A program made the translations under genes and the position numbers. 38,618 bases of DNA, from the UHGV virus genome UHGV-0392077; one strand, written 5' to 3'. Source of the stretch: a virus. Under the pieces are notes generated by a model. It saw nothing but the letters and a program-made list of their open reading frames with translations. It did not search any database and was not told the DNA's origin. Position 1 is the stretch's first letter, and each line of letters begins with the position of its first letter. Shown piece by piece: positions 2,440 through 34,842 of the stretch.

Positions 2440-3086
2440 GCTGCACGCTCCCGCCCCTGGTTGTCTGTTGGTGACAGCGGAGCATTGCTGAATGCATTTG
2501 TTAATCCGCCAATATCCAACGCGTATCCGGGGTGTAGTTGCACTGCCGGGTCTTCGCACTGATTACCCCAAACATCGAAGCCATGAGACGACTGGCGGGC
2601 GAACAGTTCAATGCGAGAAACATCGCCTAACAATTGCACAAGTTTTTCACGAACGACATCTGGTTTTCTTGAATGCTCAAGCCGCGGTGCCGTAAATGAC
2701 TGAACGATCCCTGCATTAATGCGCGGAGGTAGTTTTCCCTTTACTGCAAACAGGCAATCTTCACTATTGGCGCGAGTCATGTGACCCATACCCATAACCA
2801 GTTTATCTGGTTGTCGACTACCACATTTTATCCACGTGAATCCCTTCATGGTCATCAGACGGAACCCCCAGGCTTCAACAACTTTTAGTGCTTCGAGTGG
2901 TTGTGTTGGCACCCACCACATGGCCAACAGACAGTTTTCATCGGCCAAATCCCACACAGGAAGGCGGCAGATGTCCAGCACACTCATAACCGGATATTTA
3001 AAACCGGCACCGCGATTACCATCTGCGGCTTTGTCCCGGTATACCCAGGGTGGATCTGCATAGATTAGTGTGTATTTCTTAGTCAT
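2436..3086 (-). CDS. MT-A70 family DNA N6-adenine methyltransferase
   Basis: Contains YADPPWVY (the DPPW catalytic motif of MT-A70-type adenine methyltransferases). ATG at 3086 preferred over GTG at 3098. Confidence 0.8.
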   Translation of the reverse strand: MTKKYTLIYADPPWVYRDKAADGNRGAGFKYPVMSVLDICRLPVWDLADENCLLAMWWVPTQPLEALKVVEAWGFRLMTMKGFTWIKCGSRQPDKLVMGMGHMTRANSEDCLFAVKGKLPPRINAGIVQSFTAPRLEHSRKPDVVREKLVQLLGDVSRIELFARQSSHGFDVWGNQCEDPAVQLHPGYALDIGGLTNAFSNAPLSPTDNQGRERAA

Positions 3087-3378
3087 AAACCACCCCACAA
3101 CATCCTATGCCGCTATAGTCGCCACGGCGAAGGCCGTTACCTTTTGTGATACATTGGTCCCTGCGAACCGCGATCCTCGCACGCTCAACATCACCAGAAG
3201 CAACATCCATACACTGAAGCCAAAGGTGAGCGGCAATGCGGAACTGCCCTTTTTTCTCTCTTTCAATCGCGCGTTTTTCGATCTCTATCGCCGCAGGAGT
3301 AACGGCGACAATCTTTGACGGACTGCGCATTGAAACCTTGTTCATGTGATATTTTTCAAGTCGGCTTAACTTTTTCAC
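3079..3378 (-). CDS. hypothetical protein
   Basis: ORF with GTG start at 3378 (SD-like GAGGG upstream) or ATG at 3345; its stop overlaps the methyltransferase start. No recognisable motif. Confidence 0.45.
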   Translation of the reverse strand: MKKLSRLEKYHMNKVSMRSPSKIVAVTPAAIEIEKRAIEREKKGQFRIAAHLWLQCMDVASGDVERARIAVRRDQCITKGNGLRRGDYSGIGCCGVVYD

Positions 3379-6125: not shown

Positions 6126-6710
6126 TTATTGTTTGCTTTTTTCGTTCTGGTTGATGACAAATTCAATGTAACTTTCGATCTTTGCCTTCTCTGTTTCAGG
6201 TAACAATGCGTAGCGCGAGCGATCATAGTTGATAGTCGCAGGGTCGTGCGGGTGAATCAGTAATTCATAGCCGTGACGCCCGAATGCGGATGCAACATTC
6301 TCCAGGGTGGAAATGGAAACGCTGACTTCATTGTTTAACAGGCGGCTGATTGTCACCTGGGCGACGCCGGATGCGCGGTGAAGTTTTCCCTGTGTTGAAA
6401 GGTCGCGGCTTTCGCTCATCCAGCGTTCCAGGTTGTGAGCCGCCAGCTGACCAATGTCGCTTGGGCCGACAGGCTGAAACCCCTCCTGAGAAAGCGAGCG
6501 ATCGATATCAAGCCAGTTACGGGGTTTATTGGCGGCAGCTTCAATTTTTCGCGCAACCTGGTCGCCGATAACCTTCTTGCCAAGAGCCCAGCGGTTTACC
6601 AGATTTGCCTGAGTTCCAAGTTTTTCTGCCATCCGCGTCTGAACACCATTGAATTCACGGTCGATCAAGTCGTTGAGATTTTGCCTGCGGACGTCCTGGA
6701 TACTTTTCAT
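6126..6710 (-). CDS. phage repressor (CI-like), two HTH-like segments, no S24 peptidase domain
   Basis: 194 aa; HTH-like segments GVQTRMAEKLGTQANLVNRWALGKK and GVAQVTISRLLNNE; no Ser/Lys autoprotease signature. Divergent from the Cro-like gene across an operator cluster. Confidence 0.65.
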   Translation of the reverse strand: MKSIQDVRRQNLNDLIDREFNGVQTRMAEKLGTQANLVNRWALGKKVIGDQVARKIEAAANKPRNWLDIDRSLSQEGFQPVGPSDIGQLAAHNLERWMSESRDLSTQGKLHRASGVAQVTISRLLNNEVSVSISTLENVASAFGRHGYELLIHPHDPATINYDRSRYALLPETEKAKIESYIEFVINQNEKSKQ

Positions 6711-12081: not shown

Positions 12082-12365
12082 TGGACTCCTTCGCGAAATA
12101 TACGATTATTGACTGGATAGCCTTCCTTCAGGTTTTGCTCATCTGGTTTTATATGGCTTACAGGAGTGGACAGTGGATTGTCAGTGTAGCCTGTAGCAAG
12201 GGATGGCGTTGGTGGAACCGAAAGAATAAAAAAGCACTGGCATTGGATTCGTTTTACGAAGCATTCAATCTTAACAGCCTTCAGCCTGGTTCTGTCATTG
12301 TAGTCACCACTCAAAGCGGCATGACGATACAAATTCACAAGCCAAAGGAGGAAGGTCGTGGCTAA
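12081..12365 (+). CDS. hypothetical membrane protein
   Basis: ATG 12081, 7 nt after AGGAGG; N-terminal hydrophobic helix (IIDWIAFLQVLLIWFYMAY). Confidence 0.45.
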   Translation: MDSFAKYTIIDWIAFLQVLLIWFYMAYRSGQWIVSVACSKGWRWWNRKNKKALALDSFYEAFNLNSLQPGSVIVVTTQSGMTIQIHKPKEEGRG

Positions 12366-12639
12366 CCTGCAACTTGCCGTTAAAGGTGAATACTTCGATG
12401 CCATGATTCGCGGGGAGAAAACGGAAGAGTATCGCCTGTGTAATGACTACTGGAATAAGCGAATTATGTTACGGGTGTATGACCGTCTGATTATCACAAA
12501 GGGATATCCGAAGCGCGACGATTCCAGTCGCAGAATTGATGTTCCGTATGGCGGATATGAAATAAAGACAATCACACATCCCCACTTCGGCGATAAACCG
12601 GTAAAGGTGTTCGCGATAAAGGTAAATATTGATGGCTAA
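12358..12639 (+). CDS. ASCH/DUF3850-like small protein (putative)
   Basis: GTG 12358 after AAGGAGGAAGG; VKGEYFDAMIRGEKTEEYRLCND pattern resembles ASCH-type domains. Confidence 0.4.
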   Translation: MANLQLAVKGEYFDAMIRGEKTEEYRLCNDYWNKRIMLRVYDRLIITKGYPKRDDSSRRIDVPYGGYEIKTITHPHFGDKPVKVFAIKVNIDG

Positions 12640-12970
12640 ATCAGCAGCAGAGCGCAAAGCCGCTCAGAGAGCCAGACAAGCTGCATCTGGTGTGCGTAAG
12701 CTGGAGATTGTGCTTGATGCTCAGGAAATTGAAATGCTGGAGCGTAACTGTGCCACGCGTCGCCCCGGGCATGCGCCTTACGAATTTGGTGAGTATATAG
12801 CGTTACTGATCCGCCAGGATGATGCACGCGTGCGCGGGCGTATAAAATCGATCAGCAGAAAACGTTGCGGTAAGTGCGGCGAGAGAGTTCCAGTTAATTC
12901 ATGCCCGTGTAATGGTGACTCGCAATGCTGGGTGACTAAAGGCTGGCATGAAACGAAATTAATAGTGTGA
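12632..12970 (+). CDS. hypothetical DNA-binding-like protein with C-terminal Cys cluster; candidate late regulator
   Basis: Basic N-terminus AKSAAERKAAQRARQAASGVRKLEIVLDAQEIEMLE and C-terminal C-G-K-C ... C-P-C-N-G; last gene before the late-operon junction. Function inferred from position only. Confidence 0.4.
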   Translation: MAKSAAERKAAQRARQAASGVRKLEIVLDAQEIEMLERNCATRRPGHAPYEFGEYIALLIRQDDARVRGRIKSISRKRCGKCGERVPVNSCPCNGDSQCWVTKGWHETKLIV

Positions 12971-12978
12971 CATGTCAC
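12967..12978. repeat. perfect 12-bp palindrome GTGACATGTCAC (copy 1 of 3)
   Basis: Exact string; contains the TGA stop of the upstream gene; followed by GAAGGTGTTAT. Confidence 0.9.
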
Positions 12979-12987
12979 GAAGGTGTT

Positions 12988-13200
12988 ATGCCAAAAATAC
13001 GCTACGACCTTGAAGATATGAGAGATAACTCAGCAAATTTTCCGAAAGAGGTTAAATTTCTCATGCATAAGTATGGTTGCGCCAGGAGGGATATAGTTAT
13101 CGACAGTCAGCACCCTTGCGGCGAGGATGTAATTTTCATTCGCGGTAAATGGGAAGGGTATCTTGACGAGAGTTTTTACGATGAATTTGATGGACTTTGA
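12988..13200 (+). CDS. hypothetical small protein (70 aa)
   Basis: ATG 12988 with AAGGTG upstream; could alternatively be part of a late-operon leader. Confidence 0.35.
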   Translation: MPKIRYDLEDMRDNSANFPKEVKFLMHKYGCARRDIVIDSQHPCGEDVIFIRGKWEGYLDESFYDEFDGL

Positions 13201-13205
13201 ATACT

Positions 13206-13231
13206 GCCGCCAACTATGGCGGCTTTATTTT
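13206..13231 (+). terminator. rho-independent terminator immediately upstream of the terminase genes
   Basis: GCCGCC-AACTAT-GGCGGC followed by TTTATTTT. Confidence 0.6.
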
Positions 13232-13242
13232 GCATGGTACTA

Positions 13243-13257
13243 TTACCACAACGGTAA
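13243..13257. promoter_or_regulatory. operator-like palindrome TTACC-acaac-GGTAA (plus imperfect TTACC-acggt-GGTTA at 13261-13275)
   Basis: Between the terminator and the terminase small-subunit start. Confidence 0.5.
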
Positions 13258-13274
13258 CAATTACCACGGTGGTT

Positions 13275-13871
13275 ATGATGCCTGCTGAACCTAAAACCTA
13301 TAAACGCAAATCAACGCAATTTAAGCCGCTCACAGCAATGCAGGAGGCTTATTGCCAGTCATACATCAAAACGCCTGAAAACCAGACTCAGGCAGCGATT
13401 AACGCAGGATTCTCCCCAAATACAGCGGCAGTTAAAGCCAGTGTCATGATGCGCGATGAACGCATTCAAAAACGGATTGCCGAGCTGATGGAAGAGCGCA
13501 ACAAACGAATGCGCGTCAGTGCCGATTACGTTCTCATGCGCCTGGTGGAGATCGACCAGATGGACGTGATTGATATCCTCAACGACGATGGGAGCCTTAA
13601 GCCAATCCGCGAGTGGCCGAAAATCTGGCGCACTACGCTTAGTGGCTTTGATCTGTCATCGACCATCATGAACATGAACGAGGATTCGATAGAGACAATC
13701 CTCAAAAAAATTAAATGGCCTGACAAGGTGAAGAACCTCGAACTGATTGGTAAGCACGTCGACGTCAACGCATTCAAAGAACGCCTGGATGTTAATGTGA
13801 ATGTGACAATTGCTGATCGCATAGCGGCAGCCAGGAAGCGACTCAAAGAACGTCAGGATGGTAATCAGTGA
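13275..13871 (+). CDS. terS: terminase small subunit
   Basis: LTAMQEAYCQSYIKTPENQTQAAINAGFSPNTAAVKASVMMRDERIQKRIAELMEER matches the HTH-containing small-terminase pattern (Terminase_2/P27-like, as recalled). Start moved to ATG 13275 because the ORF-track N-terminus translates the terminator and operator. Confidence 0.7.
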   Translation: MMPAEPKTYKRKSTQFKPLTAMQEAYCQSYIKTPENQTQAAINAGFSPNTAAVKASVMMRDERIQKRIAELMEERNKRMRVSADYVLMRLVEIDQMDVIDILNDDGSLKPIREWPKIWRTTLSGFDLSSTIMNMNEDSIETILKKIKWPDKVKNLELIGKHVDVNAFKERLDVNVNVTIADRIAAARKRLKERQDGNQ

Positions 13872-15343
13872 CAGATACAGCGTTATCTCCTGAAGAGCAG
13901 TTGATCGAGGATATTGCAGGGTTCACTCACGATCCGCTTGGCTATGCCCTCTATGCGTTCCCGTGGGGGGAAGAGGGGACTGAACTGGCACATGCCACCG
14001 GCCCACGTCAGTGGCAGGCTGATGCGTTCCGAGAGATACGTGATCACCTGCAGAATCCAGAGACGCGCTATCAGCCGCTTATGCTGGCACGCGCTTCTGG
14101 TCACGGTATTGGTAAATCCGCATTCATCTCAATGCTGATCAACTGGGGCATGTCCACTTGCGAGGATTGTAAGGTCGTGGTGACCGCCAACACCGACAAC
14201 CAGCTACGAACGAAGACCTGGCCGGAAATTATCAAGTGGTCAAACCTTGCTATCACGAAAGACTGGTTTACCTGTACCGCTACCGCGATGTACAGCAATG
14301 ACCCTGGGCACGACAAGCGGTGGCGAGCTGACGCAATCCCCTGGTCTGAGCACAACACTGAGGCATTCGCCGGACTACACAACGAGCGCAAACGCATCAT
14401 CGTGGTATTCGATGAAGCGTCGAATATTGCCGATCTTGTGTGGGAGGTAGCAGAGGGTGCGTTGACGGACGAAGACACCGAAATCATCTGGGTGGCGTTC
14501 GGGAACCCGACGCGTAACACCGGGCGTTTCCGTGAATGTTTCCGCAAGTACAAACACCGCTGGAAGTGTGCGCAGATTGACAGCCGGACGGTGGAAGGCA
14601 CTAACAAACAGCAGTTGCAGAAATGGGTTGATGACTACGGGGAAGACAGCGACTTCGTTAAAATCCGTGTGCGCGGCATATTCCCGGATGCATCTGAATT
14701 GCAGTTTATCCCTACCGGTCTTACTGATGAGGCAATGAAACGGGTGGTAACCGCTGCGCAGGTTGCACATGCTCCGGTGATAATCGGCGTTGACCCGGCA
14801 TACTCCGGTGTTGATGACGCGGTGATATACCTGCGGCAGGGGCTGCACAGTAAGGTGCTGTGGACTGGTAACAAGACCACCGACGATCTGATTATGGCGA
14901 AGCGCATCGCTGACTTTGAAGACCAGTATCAGGCTGACGCGGTATTCATCGACTTCGGTTACGGAACCGGTTTGAAGTCAATCGGTGATGGCTGGGGACG
15001 TACATGGCAACTTGTTCCGTTCGGTGGCGCGTCTACTGACCCGCAGATGCTCAACAAGCGTGGGGAGATGTTCAACTCATGTAAGACATGGCTGAGGCTG
15101 GGCGGCATGCTGGATGACCAGGAAACTGCAGACGACCTGTCGGCGGCAGAGTACAAAGTTCGAGTGGACGGTAAAATCGTTATCGAACCGAAGGAAGATA
15201 TCAAAGAGCGACTTGGGCGTTCACCTGGTAAAGGCGATGCGCTACTGCTGACGTTTGCGTTCCCTGTGTCAAAGCGTCTGCTAATTCCCGGGCAGCAGAA
15301 CCAGCAAGGCAAGGCCATCACAGATTACGATCCCTATGCTTAA
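13868..15343 (+). CDS. terL: terminase large subunit
   Basis: 491 aa; GTG 13868 overlaps the terS stop (GTGA). Walker-A-like ASGHGIGKSA and VVFDEASNI (Walker-B-like); size and position typical. Confidence 0.8.
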   Translation: MTDTALSPEEQLIEDIAGFTHDPLGYALYAFPWGEEGTELAHATGPRQWQADAFREIRDHLQNPETRYQPLMLARASGHGIGKSAFISMLINWGMSTCEDCKVVVTANTDNQLRTKTWPEIIKWSNLAITKDWFTCTATAMYSNDPGHDKRWRADAIPWSEHNTEAFAGLHNERKRIIVVFDEASNIADLVWEVAEGALTDEDTEIIWVAFGNPTRNTGRFRECFRKYKHRWKCAQIDSRTVEGTNKQQLQKWVDDYGEDSDFVKIRVRGIFPDASELQFIPTGLTDEAMKRVVTAAQVAHAPVIIGVDPAYSGVDDAVIYLRQGLHSKVLWTGNKTTDDLIMAKRIADFEDQYQADAVFIDFGYGTGLKSIGDGWGRTWQLVPFGGASTDPQMLNKRGEMFNSCKTWLRLGGMLDDQETADDLSAAEYKVRVDGKIVIEPKEDIKERLGRSPGKGDALLLTFAFPVSKRLLIPGQQNQQGKAITDYDPYA

Positions 15344-15370: not shown

Positions 15371-15420
15371 ATCCTCTGATGAGGATAAAACAAAGCCAGC
15401 TCATCGGCTGGCTGTTTGTG
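15371..15420. terminator. bidirectional terminator region between terL (+) and the minus-strand moron gene
   Basis: Two adjacent hairpins (ATCCTC-TGAT-GAGGAT; AGCCAGC-TCATCG-GCTGGCT) with T-rich runs on both strands. Confidence 0.45.
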
Positions 15421-15429
15421 ACATGTCAC
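15418..15429. repeat. perfect 12-bp palindrome GTGACATGTCAC (copy 2 of 3)
   Basis: Exact string, followed by GGTGTTATT; abuts the terminator hairpin and lies 5 nt beyond the stop of gene 15434..15808. Confidence 0.9.
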
Positions 15430-15433
15430 GGTG

Positions 15434-15808
15434 TTATTGCTCGCTTAACTTCTGCTTCAGCAAGTAACCTTCAAGTATCCAGATTTTGTTTACAGCATTC
15501 TGCCGGGCAATCTTCCGACCAATTTCCGCATCAAAGTTTTCCGGGCTTGCACAGGCGCTCTCTCCGGTGACGGTGAAGCCATTCTTCAGTACCAATACGC
15601 AGAAAGTGAGAAGGTGCAGAGCATCAGGGGTGGCTTCAACATAAGGCTCCGGATTATAAATAAGGTCATCTTCTTTAGCCTGGTGGTCACCCTGCGCAGC
15701 AGTGAAAAAATGCTCACTGCAAATGAGGCCTTCAATTTTCTCAGGTGTTACACGCGGTGCCGTTTTGCCTTTCTCAACGATTTCTTTTTCGATTTGCTGG
15801 TCGTTCAT
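15434..15808 (-). CDS. hypothetical protein (124 aa), moron gene antisense to the late operon
   Basis: ATG 15808 preceded by AAGGTGAG; transcribed opposite to the flanking terminase and portal genes and bracketed by hairpins. No confidently recognised motif. Confidence 0.55.
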   Translation of the reverse strand: MNDQQIEKEIVEKGKTAPRVTPEKIEGLICSEHFFTAAQGDHQAKEDDLIYNPEPYVEATPDALHLLTFCVLVLKNGFTVTGESACASPENFDAEIGRKIARQNAVNKIWILEGYLLKQKLSEQ

Positions 15809-16006: not shown

Positions 16007-16083
16007 TGGCGTGGCATGCAGGATTCGAACCTGCGACCAACCGCTTAGAAGGCGGTTGCTCTGTCCAGCTGAGCTAATGCCAC
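16007..16083 (-). tRNA. tRNA-Arg(UCU): tRNA-Arg (anticodon UCU), argU-like, CCA encoded
   Basis: Minus strand folds by hand into a cloverleaf: acceptor GTGGCAT/ATGCCAC, D-arm GCTC...GAGC, anticodon stem ACCGC/GCGGT with loop CTTCTAA (anticodon TCT), T-arm GCAGG-TTCGAAT-CCTGC, discriminator G plus CCA. Resembles E. coli argU as recalled. Confidence 0.8.
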
Positions 16084-32715: not shown

Positions 32716-33096
32716 ATGAGAAAAGTATTTTTGATTTTTGGATTTATGCTTCTCGTTGGATGCCAGTCAGCTGCACAGTTTGAAAGAAATATGCTTACGT
32801 GGCGTGGGCAGAGTATAGACGCAATGGTTCAGCAGTGGGGGTATCCTCAGGGAGAGCTTACATCTCCAGATGGAAACAGAGTGTATGTTTACTCAAGCTC
32901 TGGTAGTTATAACGTACCACAAACCACAACGTATAATACTACGTCTAATCTAATTGGTAATACTATATATTCAAACACATATGCAACAACTGATGGCGGT
33001 TATACACTCCATTTCAGTTGCTCTGTTTACGTTGAGTTTGGTGCTGATAAGATTATTAAAAATGTTACATGGCGCGGTAATAATTGCGTTGCGTGA
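32716..33096 (+). CDS. lipoprotein (moron; possible superinfection-exclusion factor)
   Basis: Signal peptide MRKVFLIFGFMLLVGC with lipobox LVG|C; AGGGG 6 nt upstream of ATG 32716; conspicuously AT-rich compared with its flanks. Confidence 0.65.
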   Translation: MRKVFLIFGFMLLVGCQSAAQFERNMLTWRGQSIDAMVQQWGYPQGELTSPDGNRVYVYSSSGSYNVPQTTTYNTTSNLIGNTIYSNTYATTDGGYTLHFSCSVYVEFGADKIIKNVTWRGNNCVA

Positions 33097-33104
33097 CATG
33101 TCAC
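33093..33104. repeat. perfect 12-bp palindrome GTGACATGTCAC (copy 3 of 3)
   Basis: Exact string; contains the TGA stop of the lipoprotein gene and abuts the terminator hairpin. Confidence 0.9.
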
Positions 33105-33130
33105 AGGCCGCTTTCGCGGCCTTGTTTTTA
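33105..33130 (+). terminator. rho-independent terminator of the lipoprotein gene
   Basis: AGGCCGC-TTTC-GCGGCCT followed by TGTTTTT. Confidence 0.6.
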
Positions 33131-33169
33131 ACGAATGCCACCGCCGCCCGGGCGGGAATCCGCAGACAC

Positions 33170-33190: not shown

Positions 33191-33739
33191 TTACTTTTCT
33201 TCAGGTTTGTTGTCTTCAGATTTCTTCTTGATGCTTGGTTTTTGTCTAAGAACGAAAATACCAGCCACTGCAACAACTGTACCGATCACTGTGCCTGCTA
33301 GAACTTCATGACCTGTTAAACCTAATAATGTTGCACAAGCTACTGTAAAAATAGTTGCACTCAGGCCAAACCACTGCCCACGTTTATCTCTATTAATAGC
33401 CCCGTCAAGTGCCTTTTCCTCCATTTTCTGGCGGTGAGCAAACTCCTTCTCCGTCAGCTGGAAGATGCGTTCGGGGGCATCAGGTAAAATATCCTGATAC
33501 CCGCGAAGCAGATAAGGGGGAGGAAGCGGACCCTGAAACGCATGGTGAGCGACAACTATCTCCTGAATTTCAGGGCGATCAAGAACTCTTGTGAAGGCAT
33601 CTGGGTGTTGAATGATCTCGTTACTTAGCCCTTCCTCAACTTCCTCGAACTCAGTTTCTTCGTTATCACTTGGTTGCCCAATAGATTTTTGCATATTTGT
33701 CGAAGGACATTCCTTTAGCTTCTGGTTTTCCTCTTGCAT
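33191..33739 (-). CDS. hypothetical membrane protein (possible superinfection-exclusion protein)
   Basis: Acidic N-terminal region and two C-terminal TM helices (WFGLSATIFTVACATLLGL; VLAGTVIGTVVAVAGIFVL). The true start may be the internal ATG at 33694. Confidence 0.5.
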   Translation of the reverse strand: MQEENQKLKECPSTNMQKSIGQPSDNEETEFEEVEEGLSNEIIQHPDAFTRVLDRPEIQEIVVAHHAFQGPLPPPYLLRGYQDILPDAPERIFQLTEKEFAHRQKMEEKALDGAINRDKRGQWFGLSATIFTVACATLLGLTGHEVLAGTVIGTVVAVAGIFVLRQKPSIKKKSEDNKPEEK

Positions 33740-33992: not shown

Positions 33993-34013
33993 ATGAACCT
34001 CAACCAATCGACT

Positions 34014-34113: not shown

Positions 34114-34824
34114 TCAGAAGAACCCAGCCTTGTCGTTGATGTACTCCGCGTGTGTCTGGATATCACGCAGGCATTTGCTCACACCGACGATGTAGCAGAA
34201 CATGGTGGTCAGCTCCGCCGCCGCGCCCGATACGTCGTGCCCGTCTTCCTGTAACTGGTTCAGCAGATTCATCAGCAGTGAGTGCTCCGTCAGGCCGAGA
34301 ACACCAGACGGCGAATGAATCAGGCTACGGTAGCCGGGCTTCAGTGGGGCACTGTAGGTTTTGTTCTCTATCTTCATTGCCTGCATTACTGCTGACGCCG
34401 TGGCGTTGGCTACCTGGTCGGCAACCATCTTTATGCGTTCTTCCTGCGGTAGCGAGTTTTTAATGTAACTTCCGGTGCGGCGGATCTGAGGAAGAACCTC
34501 ACCTGTAACCCATTTGCGAAAGCGGTAGGGGATAGTGCCTGGTGTCACTGCGTCGCGGCAGCGGAGGATCAGTGTGTAGAGGCCTGACTCGGAGATGATG
34601 TTGATCTCTTTTACTCGGCTATCAAAAATTGCACGATGTTCATGCCCTATGTTGAACATAGACCTTTCATCATCATCCAGTTTTTCAAGTGCTTGGGTGA
34701 CGTTTTGGATACGCAGCGCACTACAAACGTCTTGGGCTACAAACCATGGTTGGCCATCGATAATGATGGAACGGATAGGGTTAACAGATTCAAATTTGAA
34801 GATGGCAGTTTGAGCATTAGCCAT
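34114..34824 (-). CDS. ant: antirepressor, Bro-N domain (Ant-like)
   Basis: N-terminus FKFESVNPIRSIIIDGQPWFVAQDVCSALRIQNVTQALEKLDDDE matches the Bro-N / P22 Ant-type domain. ATG 34824 with GGAG upstream. The C-terminal domain is paralogous to gene 35140..35397. Confidence 0.7.
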   Translation of the reverse strand: MANAQTAIFKFESVNPIRSIIIDGQPWFVAQDVCSALRIQNVTQALEKLDDDERSMFNIGHEHRAIFDSRVKEINIISESGLYTLILRCRDAVTPGTIPYRFRKWVTGEVLPQIRRTGSYIKNSLPQEERIKMVADQVANATASAVMQAMKIENKTYSAPLKPGYRSLIHSPSGVLGLTEHSLLMNLLNQLQEDGHDVSGAAAELTTMFCYIVGVSKCLRDIQTHAEYINDKAGFF

Positions 34825-34842
34825 GGTGGTTATCTCCACTTA

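What the first reader, a model, noticed from the sequence alone, without database searches (positions are those of the whole stretch)
12632..13274. Late-operon junction: terminator directly upstream of terminase, preceded by a palindrome and a candidate regulator
A strong intrinsic terminator (13206-13231) lies between the early/nin-like genes and terS, followed by an operator-like site. About 230 bp upstream is the 12-bp palindrome, then a short ORF. This resembles lambda PR'-qut-tR', where late genes depend on antitermination. The 113-aa protein just upstream has a basic N-terminus and a Cys4 cluster and could be the late regulator, although no Q-like similarity is visible.
Basis: inference. 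Interest (0 to 1): 0.5.

Follow-up and report, generated by a model that had tools for sequence, protein, structure and literature searches.

The report
Early-to-late junction of epsilon15-like phage
This is the boundary between early and packaging genes of an epsilon15-like temperate phage: a terminator followed by a repressor-controlled promoter, not a lambda-style antitermination switch, and the small gene before it encodes an uncharacterised DNA-binding protein that travels with its own 12-bp binding site.

Summary
The window is a nearly complete epsilon15-like (Uetakevirus) genome.

The "operator-like site" is two tandem 17-bp ATTACC-N5-GGTAAT operators. They belong to the family that flanks the repressor gene and that the epsilon15 GenBank record annotates as repressor sites. 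The first overlaps a conserved extended -10-like TGnTAnTAT. Two relatives keep the promoter and operator but have no terminator. terS is therefore most likely transcribed from its own repressor-controlled promoter, and the terminator only ends the early operon. The lambda PR'-qut-tR' reading is not supported.

The new result concerns the 112-aa protein. It is predicted to be a ribbon-helix-helix fold plus a Cys cluster, with no Pfam family. The palindrome GTGAC-N2-GTCAC co-occurs with its homologues in epsilon15-, ZF40-, N15-, P2-, Mu- and AH07-type phages, usually on the gene's stop codon. There are 20 sites in nine genomes against 0.33 expected, and none with other spacers. Four of those phages have their own Q, so the family is not simply a Q substitute.

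In epsilon15-like phages all three copies sit just upstream of operon-end terminators. What the protein does there is unknown. I weakly favour a roadblock or insulator role.

The parts
12632..12970 (+). Last gene of the early-right operon. It encodes a 112-aa protein with a basic N-terminal helix, a ribbon-helix-helix core and a C-terminal Cys cluster. It corresponds to epsilon15 gp49, N15 gp46 and phrog_536. Its start overlaps the stop of the upstream gene (ATGGCTAA).
12967..12978 (.). Palindrome site 1, GTGACATGTCAC. It contains the TGA stop of the gene above and is the inferred cognate DNA site of that protein.
   Evidence: One search finds 3 exact copies in the window against 0.07 expected. 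Searches show the same arms and the same 2-bp spacer at the 3' end of homologous genes in at least 6 phage lineages. One search counts 20 sites against 0.33 expected. One search is the reverse test.
12988..13200 (+). Optional cargo ORF of 70 aa (phrog_1541, function unknown), inserted between the palindrome and the terminator.
   Evidence: Searches identify it. In one search it is present in 25 of 80 close relatives. The short form keeps only the ATG and the last 7 codons. Klebsiella and Enterobacter relatives carry a LexA-box promoter and a UmuD-like gene at this spot instead.
13206..13231 (+). Intrinsic terminator that ends the early-right operon.
   Evidence: describe the hairpin. The homologous hairpin is annotated in the epsilon15 record. 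It is absent in Kp4865-1 and BUCT554.
13235..13243 (+). TGgTACTAT, an extended -10-like element and candidate terS promoter. The predicted start is near 13250, leaving a leader of about 25 nt with the Shine-Dalgarno sequence GGTGG.
   Evidence: This is read directly from the sequence. In the alignment of 8 Uetakevirus junctions, TG, TA and T/AT are invariant while the sequence further upstream diverges completely. The simple sigma-70 scan did not call it because it has no -35.
13242..13258 (.). Operator O1, ATTACCacaacGGTAAc. It is the proposed site of the prophage repressor and overlaps the -10 and the predicted start.
   Evidence: defines the motif. One search shows the epsilon15 'repressor' protein_bind feature at the homologous place. 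In one search the motif matches all 7 annotated epsilon15 repressor sites with 0 mismatches. In one search the arms are invariant and the spacer varies.
13260..13276 (.). Operator O2, ATTACCacggtGGTtAT. It is a weaker second operator that covers the ribosome-binding site and start of terS.
   Evidence: One search finds it. It is less conserved than O1.
13275..13871 (+). terS, the small terminase subunit (Terminase_2). The start is the ATG at 13275 or 13278.
15385..15429 (-). Palindrome site 2 (15418-15429) followed on the minus strand, 4 nt later, by an intrinsic terminator (stem 15413..15394 plus a T-run). It ends the minus-strand tRNA-Arg / gp49_66-family gene unit, which converges on terL.
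   Evidence: The same arrangement is found in epsilon15 and SPN1S.
33093..33131 (+). Palindrome site 3 (33093-33104), which contains the TGA stop of the last structural-operon ORF. One nt later comes the terminator GGCCGCtttcGCGGCC followed by TTGTTTTT.
   Evidence: The same arrangement is found in epsilon15 (where the terminator is annotated) and SPN1S. The same palindrome-terminator module follows a different last gene in L220.

Best explanation
The region is the boundary between the early-right operon and the packaging/late genes of an epsilon15-like temperate phage. It is built from separable modules.

1. The last early gene encodes a dimeric ribbon-helix-helix protein with a Cys cluster. 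Its cognate site is the 12-bp palindrome GTGAC-N2-GTCAC on its own stop codon. The pairing is shown by co-occurrence; binding itself is inferred.
2. Optional cargo (here a 70-aa ORF) and then an intrinsic terminator end early transcription. The structure is shown; its function is inferred.
3. Directly after the terminator lies the promoter of the terS-terL unit. It is an extended -10 element, TGnTAnTAT, overlapped by operator O1 and followed by O2. Both operators belong to the family that flanks the repressor gene. The packaging genes are therefore switched on mainly by loss of the prophage repressor at their own promoter, as at the other operator-bearing operon starts. They are not switched on by Q-like read-through of this terminator. 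This step is inferred.
4. The RHH protein binds three sites, each at an operon end just before a terminator. Most likely it acts as a repressor-type roadblock or insulator. This would feed back on its own transcript, whose stop codon lies in the site, as reported for LacI at O3 (from my own knowledge, not checked here). It would also reinforce operon boundaries against read-through and convergent transcription. This last step is a weak inference.
For: Identity of the element: the junction region (12300-13900) is 97-98% identical to several Uetakevirus phages, including PAS61, O157 typing phages 9/10, TL-2011b and phiV10. The epsilon15 record annotates the same order of gp49, terminator, repressor site and terS.

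Operators:
- The window has 14 motif matches against 1.09 expected, including sites on both sides of the repressor gene.
- The motif matches all 7 epsilon15 'repressor' features exactly, plus 3 further sites between rep and the next gene.

Promoter:
- GC.TG.TA.TATTACC-N5-GGTAA is invariant in 8 junctions.
- Two of these (Kp4865-1, BUCT554) lack the terminator altogether.

No Q/N: no antiterminator family was found among the window ORFs scanned.

Protein-site pairing:
- GTGAC-N2-GTCAC occurs 20 times in nine homologue-bearing genomes against 0.33 expected.
- The same arms with spacers of 1, 3 or 4 bp never occur, and phage lambda has none.
- The site lies on or next to the stop codon of the homologue in the window, epsilon15, SPN1S, ZF40, N15, phiKO2 and AH07. 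The same holds in 50 of 54 P2-like loci and in L156. In Mu-like loci it lies inside the 3' coding end.
- In one sub-lineage the stop codon has moved but the site is kept 9 nt downstream.
- In the reverse test, 20 of 80 loci found through the site alone carry the gene within the fetched segment, and 13 of those have it on the stop codon.

Terminator adjacency in Uetakeviruses: in the window sites 2 and 3 lie 4 and 0 nt from a terminator by the scan. Epsilon15 (sites 1 and 3) and SPN1S (sites 2 and 3) also each have two sites within 25 nt by the scan. The background chance of lying within 45 nt is about 0.03 per site.
Against: - There are no transcript, footprint or binding data. The SPC32H and epsilon15 papers could not be read, so 'repressor operator' rests on a GenBank prediction plus motif statistics.
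- The candidate promoter has no -35, only 4 of 6 matches in the -10 hexamer, and was not called by the consensus scan. It may need an activator.
- A roadblock placed right before an efficient terminator looks redundant.
- Outside the Uetakeviruses and Omnitron, the sites are not next to terminators and several lie inside genes.
- Several of the genomes counted are related to each other, so the Poisson P value overstates independence.
- The protein is present in every Uetakevirus examined, which hints at a more important role than a redundant insulator.
Confidence: 0.55

Rival explanations
1. Site-directed antitermination. The RHH/Cys protein bound at the palindrome contacts RNA polymerase as it passes and makes it read through the adjacent terminator. 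Early transcription would then run into terS-terL, and structural-operon transcription into the tailspike and lysis genes. The protein being the last early gene would provide the delay.
For: - In Uetakeviruses each palindrome lies 0-41 nt upstream of a terminator in the direction of transcription.
- The two plus-strand pairs sit exactly at the two breaks between plus-strand lytic operons.
- No Q/N homologue is present in the window.
- The gene is present in every Uetakevirus examined.
- A family profile gives a marginal match (E = 0.025) to the TraR/YbiI DksA-type zinc finger, a fold that binds RNA polymerase.
Against: - As far as I know, no RHH protein acts as an antiterminator.
- The palindrome-to-terminator distance varies between 22, 41 and 227 nt at site 1.
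- Two relatives have no terminator at this junction but keep the palindrome and the promoter/operator.
- Read-through at the minus-strand pair would give antisense terL RNA.
- The same gene-plus-site module occurs in phages that have their own Q, and there the sites are not near terminators.
- The fourth Cys of the TraR motif is not aligned, and Pfam zf-dskA_traR is not hit.
Confidence: 0.15
2. Architectural or boundary element. The protein would work like MatP at matS, or like a centromere- or relaxosome-type RHH protein. It would mark or bridge a few specific sites to organise phage DNA or to define module boundaries where cargo genes are exchanged, without acting mainly on transcription.
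For: - The site shares both 5-bp arms of matS, GTGAC[AG]N[TC]GTCAC (matS consensus from PMC3603311).
- There are few sites per genome (1-3), some of them inside genes.
- The sites border variable cargo. Site 1 is followed by a 70-aa ORF, a UmuD-like gene or nothing. Different last genes end on the same palindrome-terminator module at site 3.
- Tandem sites lie 33 bp apart in a Yersinia P2-like phage.
Against: - The protein has no four-helix bundle and no coiled coil.
- The spacer is 2 bp rather than 3, and no true matS occurs in any of the nine genomes.
- No partner ATPase or recombinase is consistently nearby.
Confidence: 0.12
3. Transcription activator. The protein bound at the palindrome would activate a nearby promoter, either the terS promoter here or the LexA-box promoter directly downstream in the Klebsiella/Enterobacter relatives. 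It would act as a late or auxiliary activator.
For: - The candidate terS promoter lacks a -35 and could need help.
- In BUCT554, Kp4865-1 and ST512phi13.3 the palindrome ends 6 nt before a TTGACT -35 hexamer.
- PHROGs and RefSeq label the family 'transcriptional regulator'.
Against: - The distance from the palindrome to the terS -10 is about 62, 80 or 270 bp in different relatives, with a terminator in between.
- Sites 2 and 3 are 1 kb and 2.4 kb from the next plus-strand promoter region.
- Many sites in other lineages lie inside coding sequence.
Confidence: 0.08
4. The palindrome is not bound by this protein. It would instead be a host-factor site, a -35-like GTGACA element or a coding or structural by-product, and it would merely hitch-hike with the gene's 3' end.
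For: - GTGACA resembles TTGACA, and in epsilon15 and SPN1S a TAAATT lies 17 nt downstream.
- In frame, the site encodes V-T-x-H. It coincides with the first CxxC motif of a Q-like protein in L232.
- 60 of 80 site-bearing loci show no family gene within the fetched segment.
Against: - The -10 partner is not conserved in the E. coli relatives.
- The site is kept when the stop codon moves or when the ORF runs through it.
- The spacing is strictly 2 bp, and spacers of 1, 3 or 4 bp are absent.
- Co-occurrence holds down to about 30% protein identity across unrelated phage types.
- The fetched segments are only part of each contig, so a missing gene in a segment is weak evidence.
Confidence: 0.05

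Closest known systems
Annotated gp49-terminator-repressor site-terS junction of Salmonella phage epsilon15 (GenBank AY150271.2)
   Same: The gene order is the same. The terminator is homologous. The ATTACC-N5-GGTAAT site, annotated there as 'repressor', lies at the same place. The terS is homologous.
   Different: The window has a 70-aa cargo ORF between the gene and the terminator. The epsilon15 record does not annotate the GTGACATGTCAC palindromes, the second operator or a promoter, and it calls gp49 hypothetical.
Lambda PR'-qut-tR' with the Q antiterminator
   Same: A terminator stands in front of the late genes, a small regulator gene lies just upstream, and there is a DNA site for a protein near the terminator.
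   Different: - The protein here is not Q-like; it is predicted to be RHH.
- No promoter lies between the site and the terminator.
- The spacing between site and terminator is variable.
- An operator-controlled promoter-like element lies after the terminator.
- The family coexists with Q in ZF40, N15, phiKO2 and AH07.
MatP-matS (E. coli Ter macrodomain organiser)
   Different: - The spacer is 2 bp, not 3.
- The phage protein has no N-terminal four-helix bundle and no C-terminal coiled coil, and it has a Cys cluster instead.
- There is no significant sequence similarity.
- It is phage-encoded, and one site is tied to the gene's own stop codon.
RHH repressors such as Arc/Mnt of P22, CopG and antitoxins, and roadblock autoregulation such as LacI at O3 at the 3' end of lacI (the latter from my own knowledge)
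   Same: Each is a small dimeric RHH protein that recognises a short palindrome. A binding site at the 3' end of the regulator's own gene could truncate its transcript.
   Different: Classical RHH repressors bind at promoters. Here no site overlaps a recognisable promoter. The C-terminal Cys module is extra. The roadblock itself is untested.
DksA/TraR C4-type zinc-finger proteins (secondary-channel RNA polymerase binders)
   Same: A long helix is followed by CxxCGxxxP...C. The family profile hits TraR and YbiI at E = 0.025 over about 60 residues.

Membership tests
Lambda-type Q antitermination module (PR'-qut-tR') | A Q-family antiterminator protein | tested here: not met
   There is no Q, Pfam, NCBIfam or PHROG antiterminator hit for the 112-aa protein or for any other scanned ORF of the window. 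The predicted fold is RHH.
Lambda-type Q antitermination module (PR'-qut-tR') | A constitutive late promoter whose Q-binding element overlaps it, upstream of the terminator | tested here: not met
   No promoter-like site is called between 12900 and 13206. The palindrome-to-terminator spacing is 22, 41 or 227 nt in relatives.
Lambda-type Q antitermination module (PR'-qut-tR') | Late genes have no promoter of their own downstream of the terminator | tested here: not met
   The conserved TGnTAnTAT plus repressor operators lie between the terminator and terS. They persist where the terminator is absent. Promoter activity itself was not measured.
Intrinsic (rho-independent) terminator | A G+C-rich hairpin followed by a U-run | tested here: met
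   The hairpin has a 7-bp stem with 6 G-C pairs, a 4-nt loop and a TTTATTTT tail. Predicted energy is -16.2 kcal/mol with z = -3.5.
Epsilon15-type prophage repressor operators | A 17-bp inverted repeat, ATTACC-N5-GGTAAT, that also flanks the repressor gene | tested here: met
   The window has 14 sites against 1.09 expected, including 5991, 6053 and 6765 around rep (6126..6710). The motif matches the epsilon15 annotated sites exactly.
Epsilon15-type prophage repressor operators | Binding by the repressor protein | not testable with these tools
   This needs EMSA or footprinting. The primary SPC32H and epsilon15 papers are not held in the library.
Extended -10 sigma-70 promoter | A TGnTATAAT-like element with a transcription start 6-8 nt downstream | tested here: inconclusive
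   TGgTACTAT has TG plus 4 of 6 matches in the hexamer. TG, TA and the final AT are invariant in 8 of 8 junctions. There are no transcription-start data.
Ribbon-helix-helix (Arc/MetJ/CopG) DNA-binding superfamily | A strand-helix-helix core | tested here: met
Ribbon-helix-helix (Arc/MetJ/CopG) DNA-binding superfamily | A homodimer that binds a palindromic or repeated DNA site | tested here: inconclusive
   A cognate palindrome is inferred from co-occurrence. Dimerisation and binding were not testable.
MatP/matS | A 13-bp site, GTGAC[AG]N[TC]GTCAC | tested here: not met
   The spacer is always 2 bp. The nine genomes contain no site with a 3-bp spacer. The matS consensus is from PMC3603311.
MatP/matS | [quoted passage not shown] | tested here: not met
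   The model has neither domain.
DksA/TraR C4 zinc finger | The CxxC-(17-21)-CxxC motif and a significant profile match | tested here: not met
   Only C79xxC82 and C99 align, and the fourth Cys is absent. The match is E = 0.025 against PDB sequences. No PF01258 hit was found among 58 members.

The most novel reading that the evidence does not exclude
The RHH/Cys protein and its GTGAC-N2-GTCAC sites form a previously undescribed, DNA-site-directed control of transcription at operon ends, that is, protein-gated terminators or roadblocks. In epsilon15-like phages, which lack Q and N, this system rather than a classical antiterminator would set the timing of the early-to-late transition. The module has spread as a gene-plus-site cassette through P2-, Mu-, N15-, lambda- and epsilon15-type temperate phages.
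Probability: 0.18. Interest if true: 0.75.

Novelty: new variant of a known kind. Interest (0 to 1): 0.5.

Why it matters
Epsilon15-like phages include O157 typing phages, serotype-converting Salmonella phages and phages used as biosensor or therapy chassis. They have no recognisable Q or N, and how they time late genes is not established.

The analysis suggests a simple architecture: many operon starts, including terS, carry the prophage repressor's operator. That makes the late switch directly testable.

It also defines an uncharacterised protein family of about 150 clusters at 50% identity, with no Pfam family. For this family there is now a confident predicted fold and an exact predicted DNA site, so it can be taken straight to EMSA, ChIP or reporter assays. 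The site has the same arms as the host matS but a spacer one base shorter, and in one genus it is always paired with terminators. Either fact could point to an unusual way of controlling transcription boundaries.

Tried and rejected
- Sequence searches with the 112-aa protein alone. Pfam, NCBIfam and PDB sequence searches gave nothing usable.
- Structure searches. Foldseek against PDB and BFVD gave only one marginal RHH match (5ytp, E 1.2) and a fragment of the same family, which added little. The afdb50 library was unavailable.
- MatP homology. hhalign was not significant.
- RNA explanations. There is no Rfam family at the junction. As RNA, the palindrome forms only a 4-bp hairpin and does not compete with the terminator stems. 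I therefore rejected an RNA antiterminator of the RAT or nut type.
- Palindrome as a promoter -35. The -10 partner is not conserved.
- CRP, FNR or LexA site. Rejected on half-site spacing, read from the sequence using my own knowledge of those consensus sites.
- Primary literature. The SPC32H Rep/Ant papers and the epsilon15 genome paper are not held. A full-text search for GTGACATGTCAC found no paper. The ZX5 paper gives only repressor and antirepressor overexpression data, with nothing on this gene.
- Sites inside Q-like genes as evidence for regulation of Q. I discounted these because the site encodes V-T-C-H of a conserved CxxC motif.
Full report
**What the window is.** The junction region (12300-13900) is 97-98% identical to the same region of Uetakevirus (epsilon15-like) temperate podophages: PAS61, O157 typing phages 9/10, TL-2011b, ZX5 and phiV10. 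The ORF map runs from Rz spanin, integrase and the early-left operon to the repressor (6126..6710, minus strand). It continues through cro-like, replication and nin-like genes to terS, terL, portal and structural genes, then the Ant island, tailspike and holin. The window is therefore almost a whole phage genome in a permuted order. None of the ORFs scanned belongs to a Q or N antiterminator family.

**Check of the observation.** Every element is present.
- The gene 12632..12970 encodes 112 aa from its ATG. Its start overlaps the stop of the upstream gene.
- GTGACATGTCAC lies at 12967-12978 and contains the gene's TGA. The window holds three exact copies against 0.07 expected.
- The ORF 12988..13200 belongs to phrog_1541.
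- The terminator has a 7-bp stem with 6 G-C pairs and a TTTATTTT tail (13206-13231). Its predicted energy is -16.2 kcal/mol with z = -3.5.
- The "operator-like site" is two adjacent 17-bp inverted repeats at 13242 and 13260.

The epsilon15 GenBank record already annotates the homologous terminator, and a "repressor" binding site between it and terS. That part of the finding is known at the level of annotation.

**The operators and the likely terS promoter.** ATTACC-N5-GGTAAT, with up to 2 mismatches, occurs 14 times in the window against 1.09 expected. Sites lie on both sides of the repressor gene (5991, 6053, 6765). Others lie before several plus-strand units: 9052/9114 before the resolvase, 13242/13260 before terS, 16405 before the portal operon and 35473 before the tailspike. 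In epsilon15 the same pattern hits all seven annotated "repressor" sites with zero mismatches, plus three more between rep and the next gene.

I aligned eight Uetakevirus junctions. The block GC.TG.TA.TATTACC-N5-GGTAA is invariant, while the operator spacer and everything further upstream vary. TGnTAnTAT fits an extended -10 promoter. The first operator overlaps it, and the predicted start near 13250 leaves a leader carrying the Shine-Dalgarno sequence GGTGG.

Two relatives, Kp4865-1 and BUCT554, have no terminator here at all. They carry a LexA-box promoter and a UmuD-like gene directly upstream, yet they keep this block. The conserved core of the junction is therefore promoter plus operator, not terminator plus upstream factor. 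Transcript data are still needed to settle it.

**The protein.** Pfam, NCBIfam and PDB sequence searches with the single protein find nothing. PHROGs places it in phrog_536, "transcriptional regulator". The family is small: 153 representatives in a library clustered at 50% identity.

An alignment of 58 diverse members shows invariant C79 and C82. C99, R8, R13, E54, L59 and P87 are nearly invariant. AlphaFold2 gives a confident model with pLDDT 93. It has a basic helix at 5-19, an extended segment at about 21-28, helices at 30-42 and 52-74, and then the Cys cluster.

**The palindrome is the protein's partner.** This is the main new result. Exact GTGACATGTCAC occurs three times each in the window, epsilon15 and SPN1S. 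It also occurs three times in the unrelated Pectobacterium myophage ZF40, whose gp22 is 67% identical to the protein. It occurs once, plus one near copy 33 bp away, in a P2-like Yersinia phage. N15 and phiKO2 (34-36% identity) carry GTGAC-TG-GTCAC, and AH07 carries GTGAC-AG-GTCAC and GTGAC-AT-GTCAC.

Across nine homologue-bearing genomes there are 20 sites against 0.33 expected from base composition. The same arms with spacers of 1, 3 or 4 bp never occur, and phage lambda has none.

One copy lies on or next to the stop codon of the homologous gene in many lineages:
- the window, epsilon15, SPN1S, N15 and phiKO2 (on the stop codon);
- ZF40 (3 nt after the stop);
- AH07, where the gene sits in the early-left operon next to xis and int;
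- 50 of 54 P2-like prophage loci (GTGAC-GC-GTCAC);
- locus L156.

In Mu-like loci the site lies inside the 3' coding end and reads V-T-G-H. In one P2-like sub-lineage the stop codon has moved, but the site is kept 9 nt downstream. The DNA site is therefore what is conserved, not the C-terminal residues.

In the reverse direction, I fetched 80 IMG/VR loci only because they contain TGTGACATGTCACA. Twenty encode a family member within the few kb fetched, and 13 of those have the site on the stop codon.

The arms are invariant while the central dinucleotide varies: AT, TG, GC, AG, CG or AC. This would fit the invariant arginines R8 and R13 reading the arms, but that is inference. No paper in the library contains the 12-mer.

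**Why not a Q substitute.** ZF40, N15, phiKO2 and AH07 each encode their own Q-like antiterminator in addition to this gene-plus-site module. The module sits after gpA in P2-like phages, before gemA-mor in a Mu-like prophage, and before xis-int in AH07 and Chlobot. The distance from palindrome to terminator at this junction is 22 nt in epsilon15. Among close relatives it is 41 nt in 47 of 80 and 227 nt in 25 of 80. The long form comes from the cargo ORF. The short form is an in-frame internal deletion that leaves MHDEFDGF. No promoter-like site lies between the palindrome and the terminator.

**What remains striking.** In Uetakeviruses all three palindromes lie just upstream, in the direction of transcription, of an intrinsic terminator at an operon end.
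- Site 1 follows the protein's own gene.
- Site 2 lies on the minus strand after the tRNA-Arg/gp49_66-family unit that converges on terL. The terminator follows 4 nt later.
- Site 3 follows the structural operon. The terminator follows 1 nt later, and the last ORF's TGA is again inside the palindrome.

The background chance of a terminator within 45 nt is about 0.03 per position. The same palindrome-terminator module follows different last genes in different relatives. Outside this genus and Omnitron the adjacency is absent, and sites often lie within genes. ZF40-like phages have two sites flanking the cI-cro-cII region.

**Mechanism.** RHH proteins are overwhelmingly repressors or architectural proteins. 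Sites inside or at the ends of transcription units, and not at promoters, fit control of elongating polymerase better than control of initiation.

I therefore favour, weakly, a roadblock or insulator role. It would feed back on the protein's own transcript and reinforce operon ends, including against convergent transcription at sites 2 and 3. The antitermination reading is kept as the main rival. It explains the two plus-strand pairs neatly and fits the absence of Q, but it fails on the minus-strand pair, on the terminator-less relatives and on the family's coexistence with Q.

**Limits.**
- There are no experimental data.
- The primary papers on the SPC32H repressor and the epsilon15 genome could not be read.
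- Several of the genomes counted are related to each other.
- The promoter is inferred from conservation only.
- Sites inside Q-like genes may be a coding coincidence, since they encode V-T-C-H of a CxxC motif.

Noticed in passing
window 16007-16083 (-): A tRNA-Arg (anticodon tct) gene lies in the small minus-strand island between terL and the portal operon, upstream of the gp49_66-family gene 15434..15808.
   Followed up: partly
window 3079-3378 (-): A PerC-family 'transcriptional activator' (phrog_868; Pfam PerC, E = 6e-7) lies in the early-left operon. It is another candidate regulator of late or host genes in a phage that has no Q.
   Followed up: no
window 9101, 16464, 35520 (+): TATGTGGTT occurs three times against 0.29 expected. 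Each copy lies about 50-60 nt downstream of a repressor operator and about 20-70 nt upstream of the first gene of a plus-strand unit (resolvase, portal operon, tailspike). Each is followed by a second operator-like half-site. At terS the equivalent sequence is ACGGTGGTT, inside O2. Its role is unexplained.
   Followed up: partly
L147 1779-1870; L148 and L149 at the same place (BUCT554, Kp4865-1, ST512-KPC3phi13.3): In the Klebsiella and Enterobacter relatives, the slot after the palindrome holds a strong sigma-70-like promoter overlapped by a LexA box (TTGACT ... TATACTGTttaaatgtACAGTA). This drives a UmuD-like gene or another small gene, so an SOS-controlled unit sits directly upstream of terS.
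   Followed up: partly
window 12988-13200 (+): The 70-aa cargo ORF (phrog_1541, function unknown) is present in 25 of 80 close relatives. The common short allele is an in-frame internal deletion that keeps the ATG and the last 7 codons.
   Followed up: yes
L093 6500-6540 (P2-like prophage): In the P2-like lineage, the gene and palindrome are followed by a second partial site about 35 nt downstream. A LexA box (TACTGTATATAAACACAGTA) then precedes a small gene, in a position reminiscent of the phage 186 tum antirepressor. The comparison with 186 comes from my own knowledge.
   Followed up: no
L007 5125 and 7622 (ZF40); L201, L222, L225: In ZF40-like phages, two GTGACATGTCAC sites flank the cI-cro-cII immunity region, about 2.1-2.5 kb apart. 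One lies in the early-left operon and one at the 3' end of the cII-like gene.
   Followed up: partly
window 34114-34839 (-) and 33191-33739 (-): A Bro-N/Ant-type antirepressor gene and a membrane-protein moron form a minus-strand island between the structural operon and the tailspike gene. Repressor operators lie at 34013 and 35473.
   Followed up: no
L232 6897-6908; L092 34430 (AH07 gene 52): A GTGAC-N2-GTCAC site lies inside Q-like antiterminator genes in two lineages. In L232 it encodes V-T-C-H at the first CxxC motif, so it may be a coding coincidence rather than a regulatory site.
   Followed up: partly
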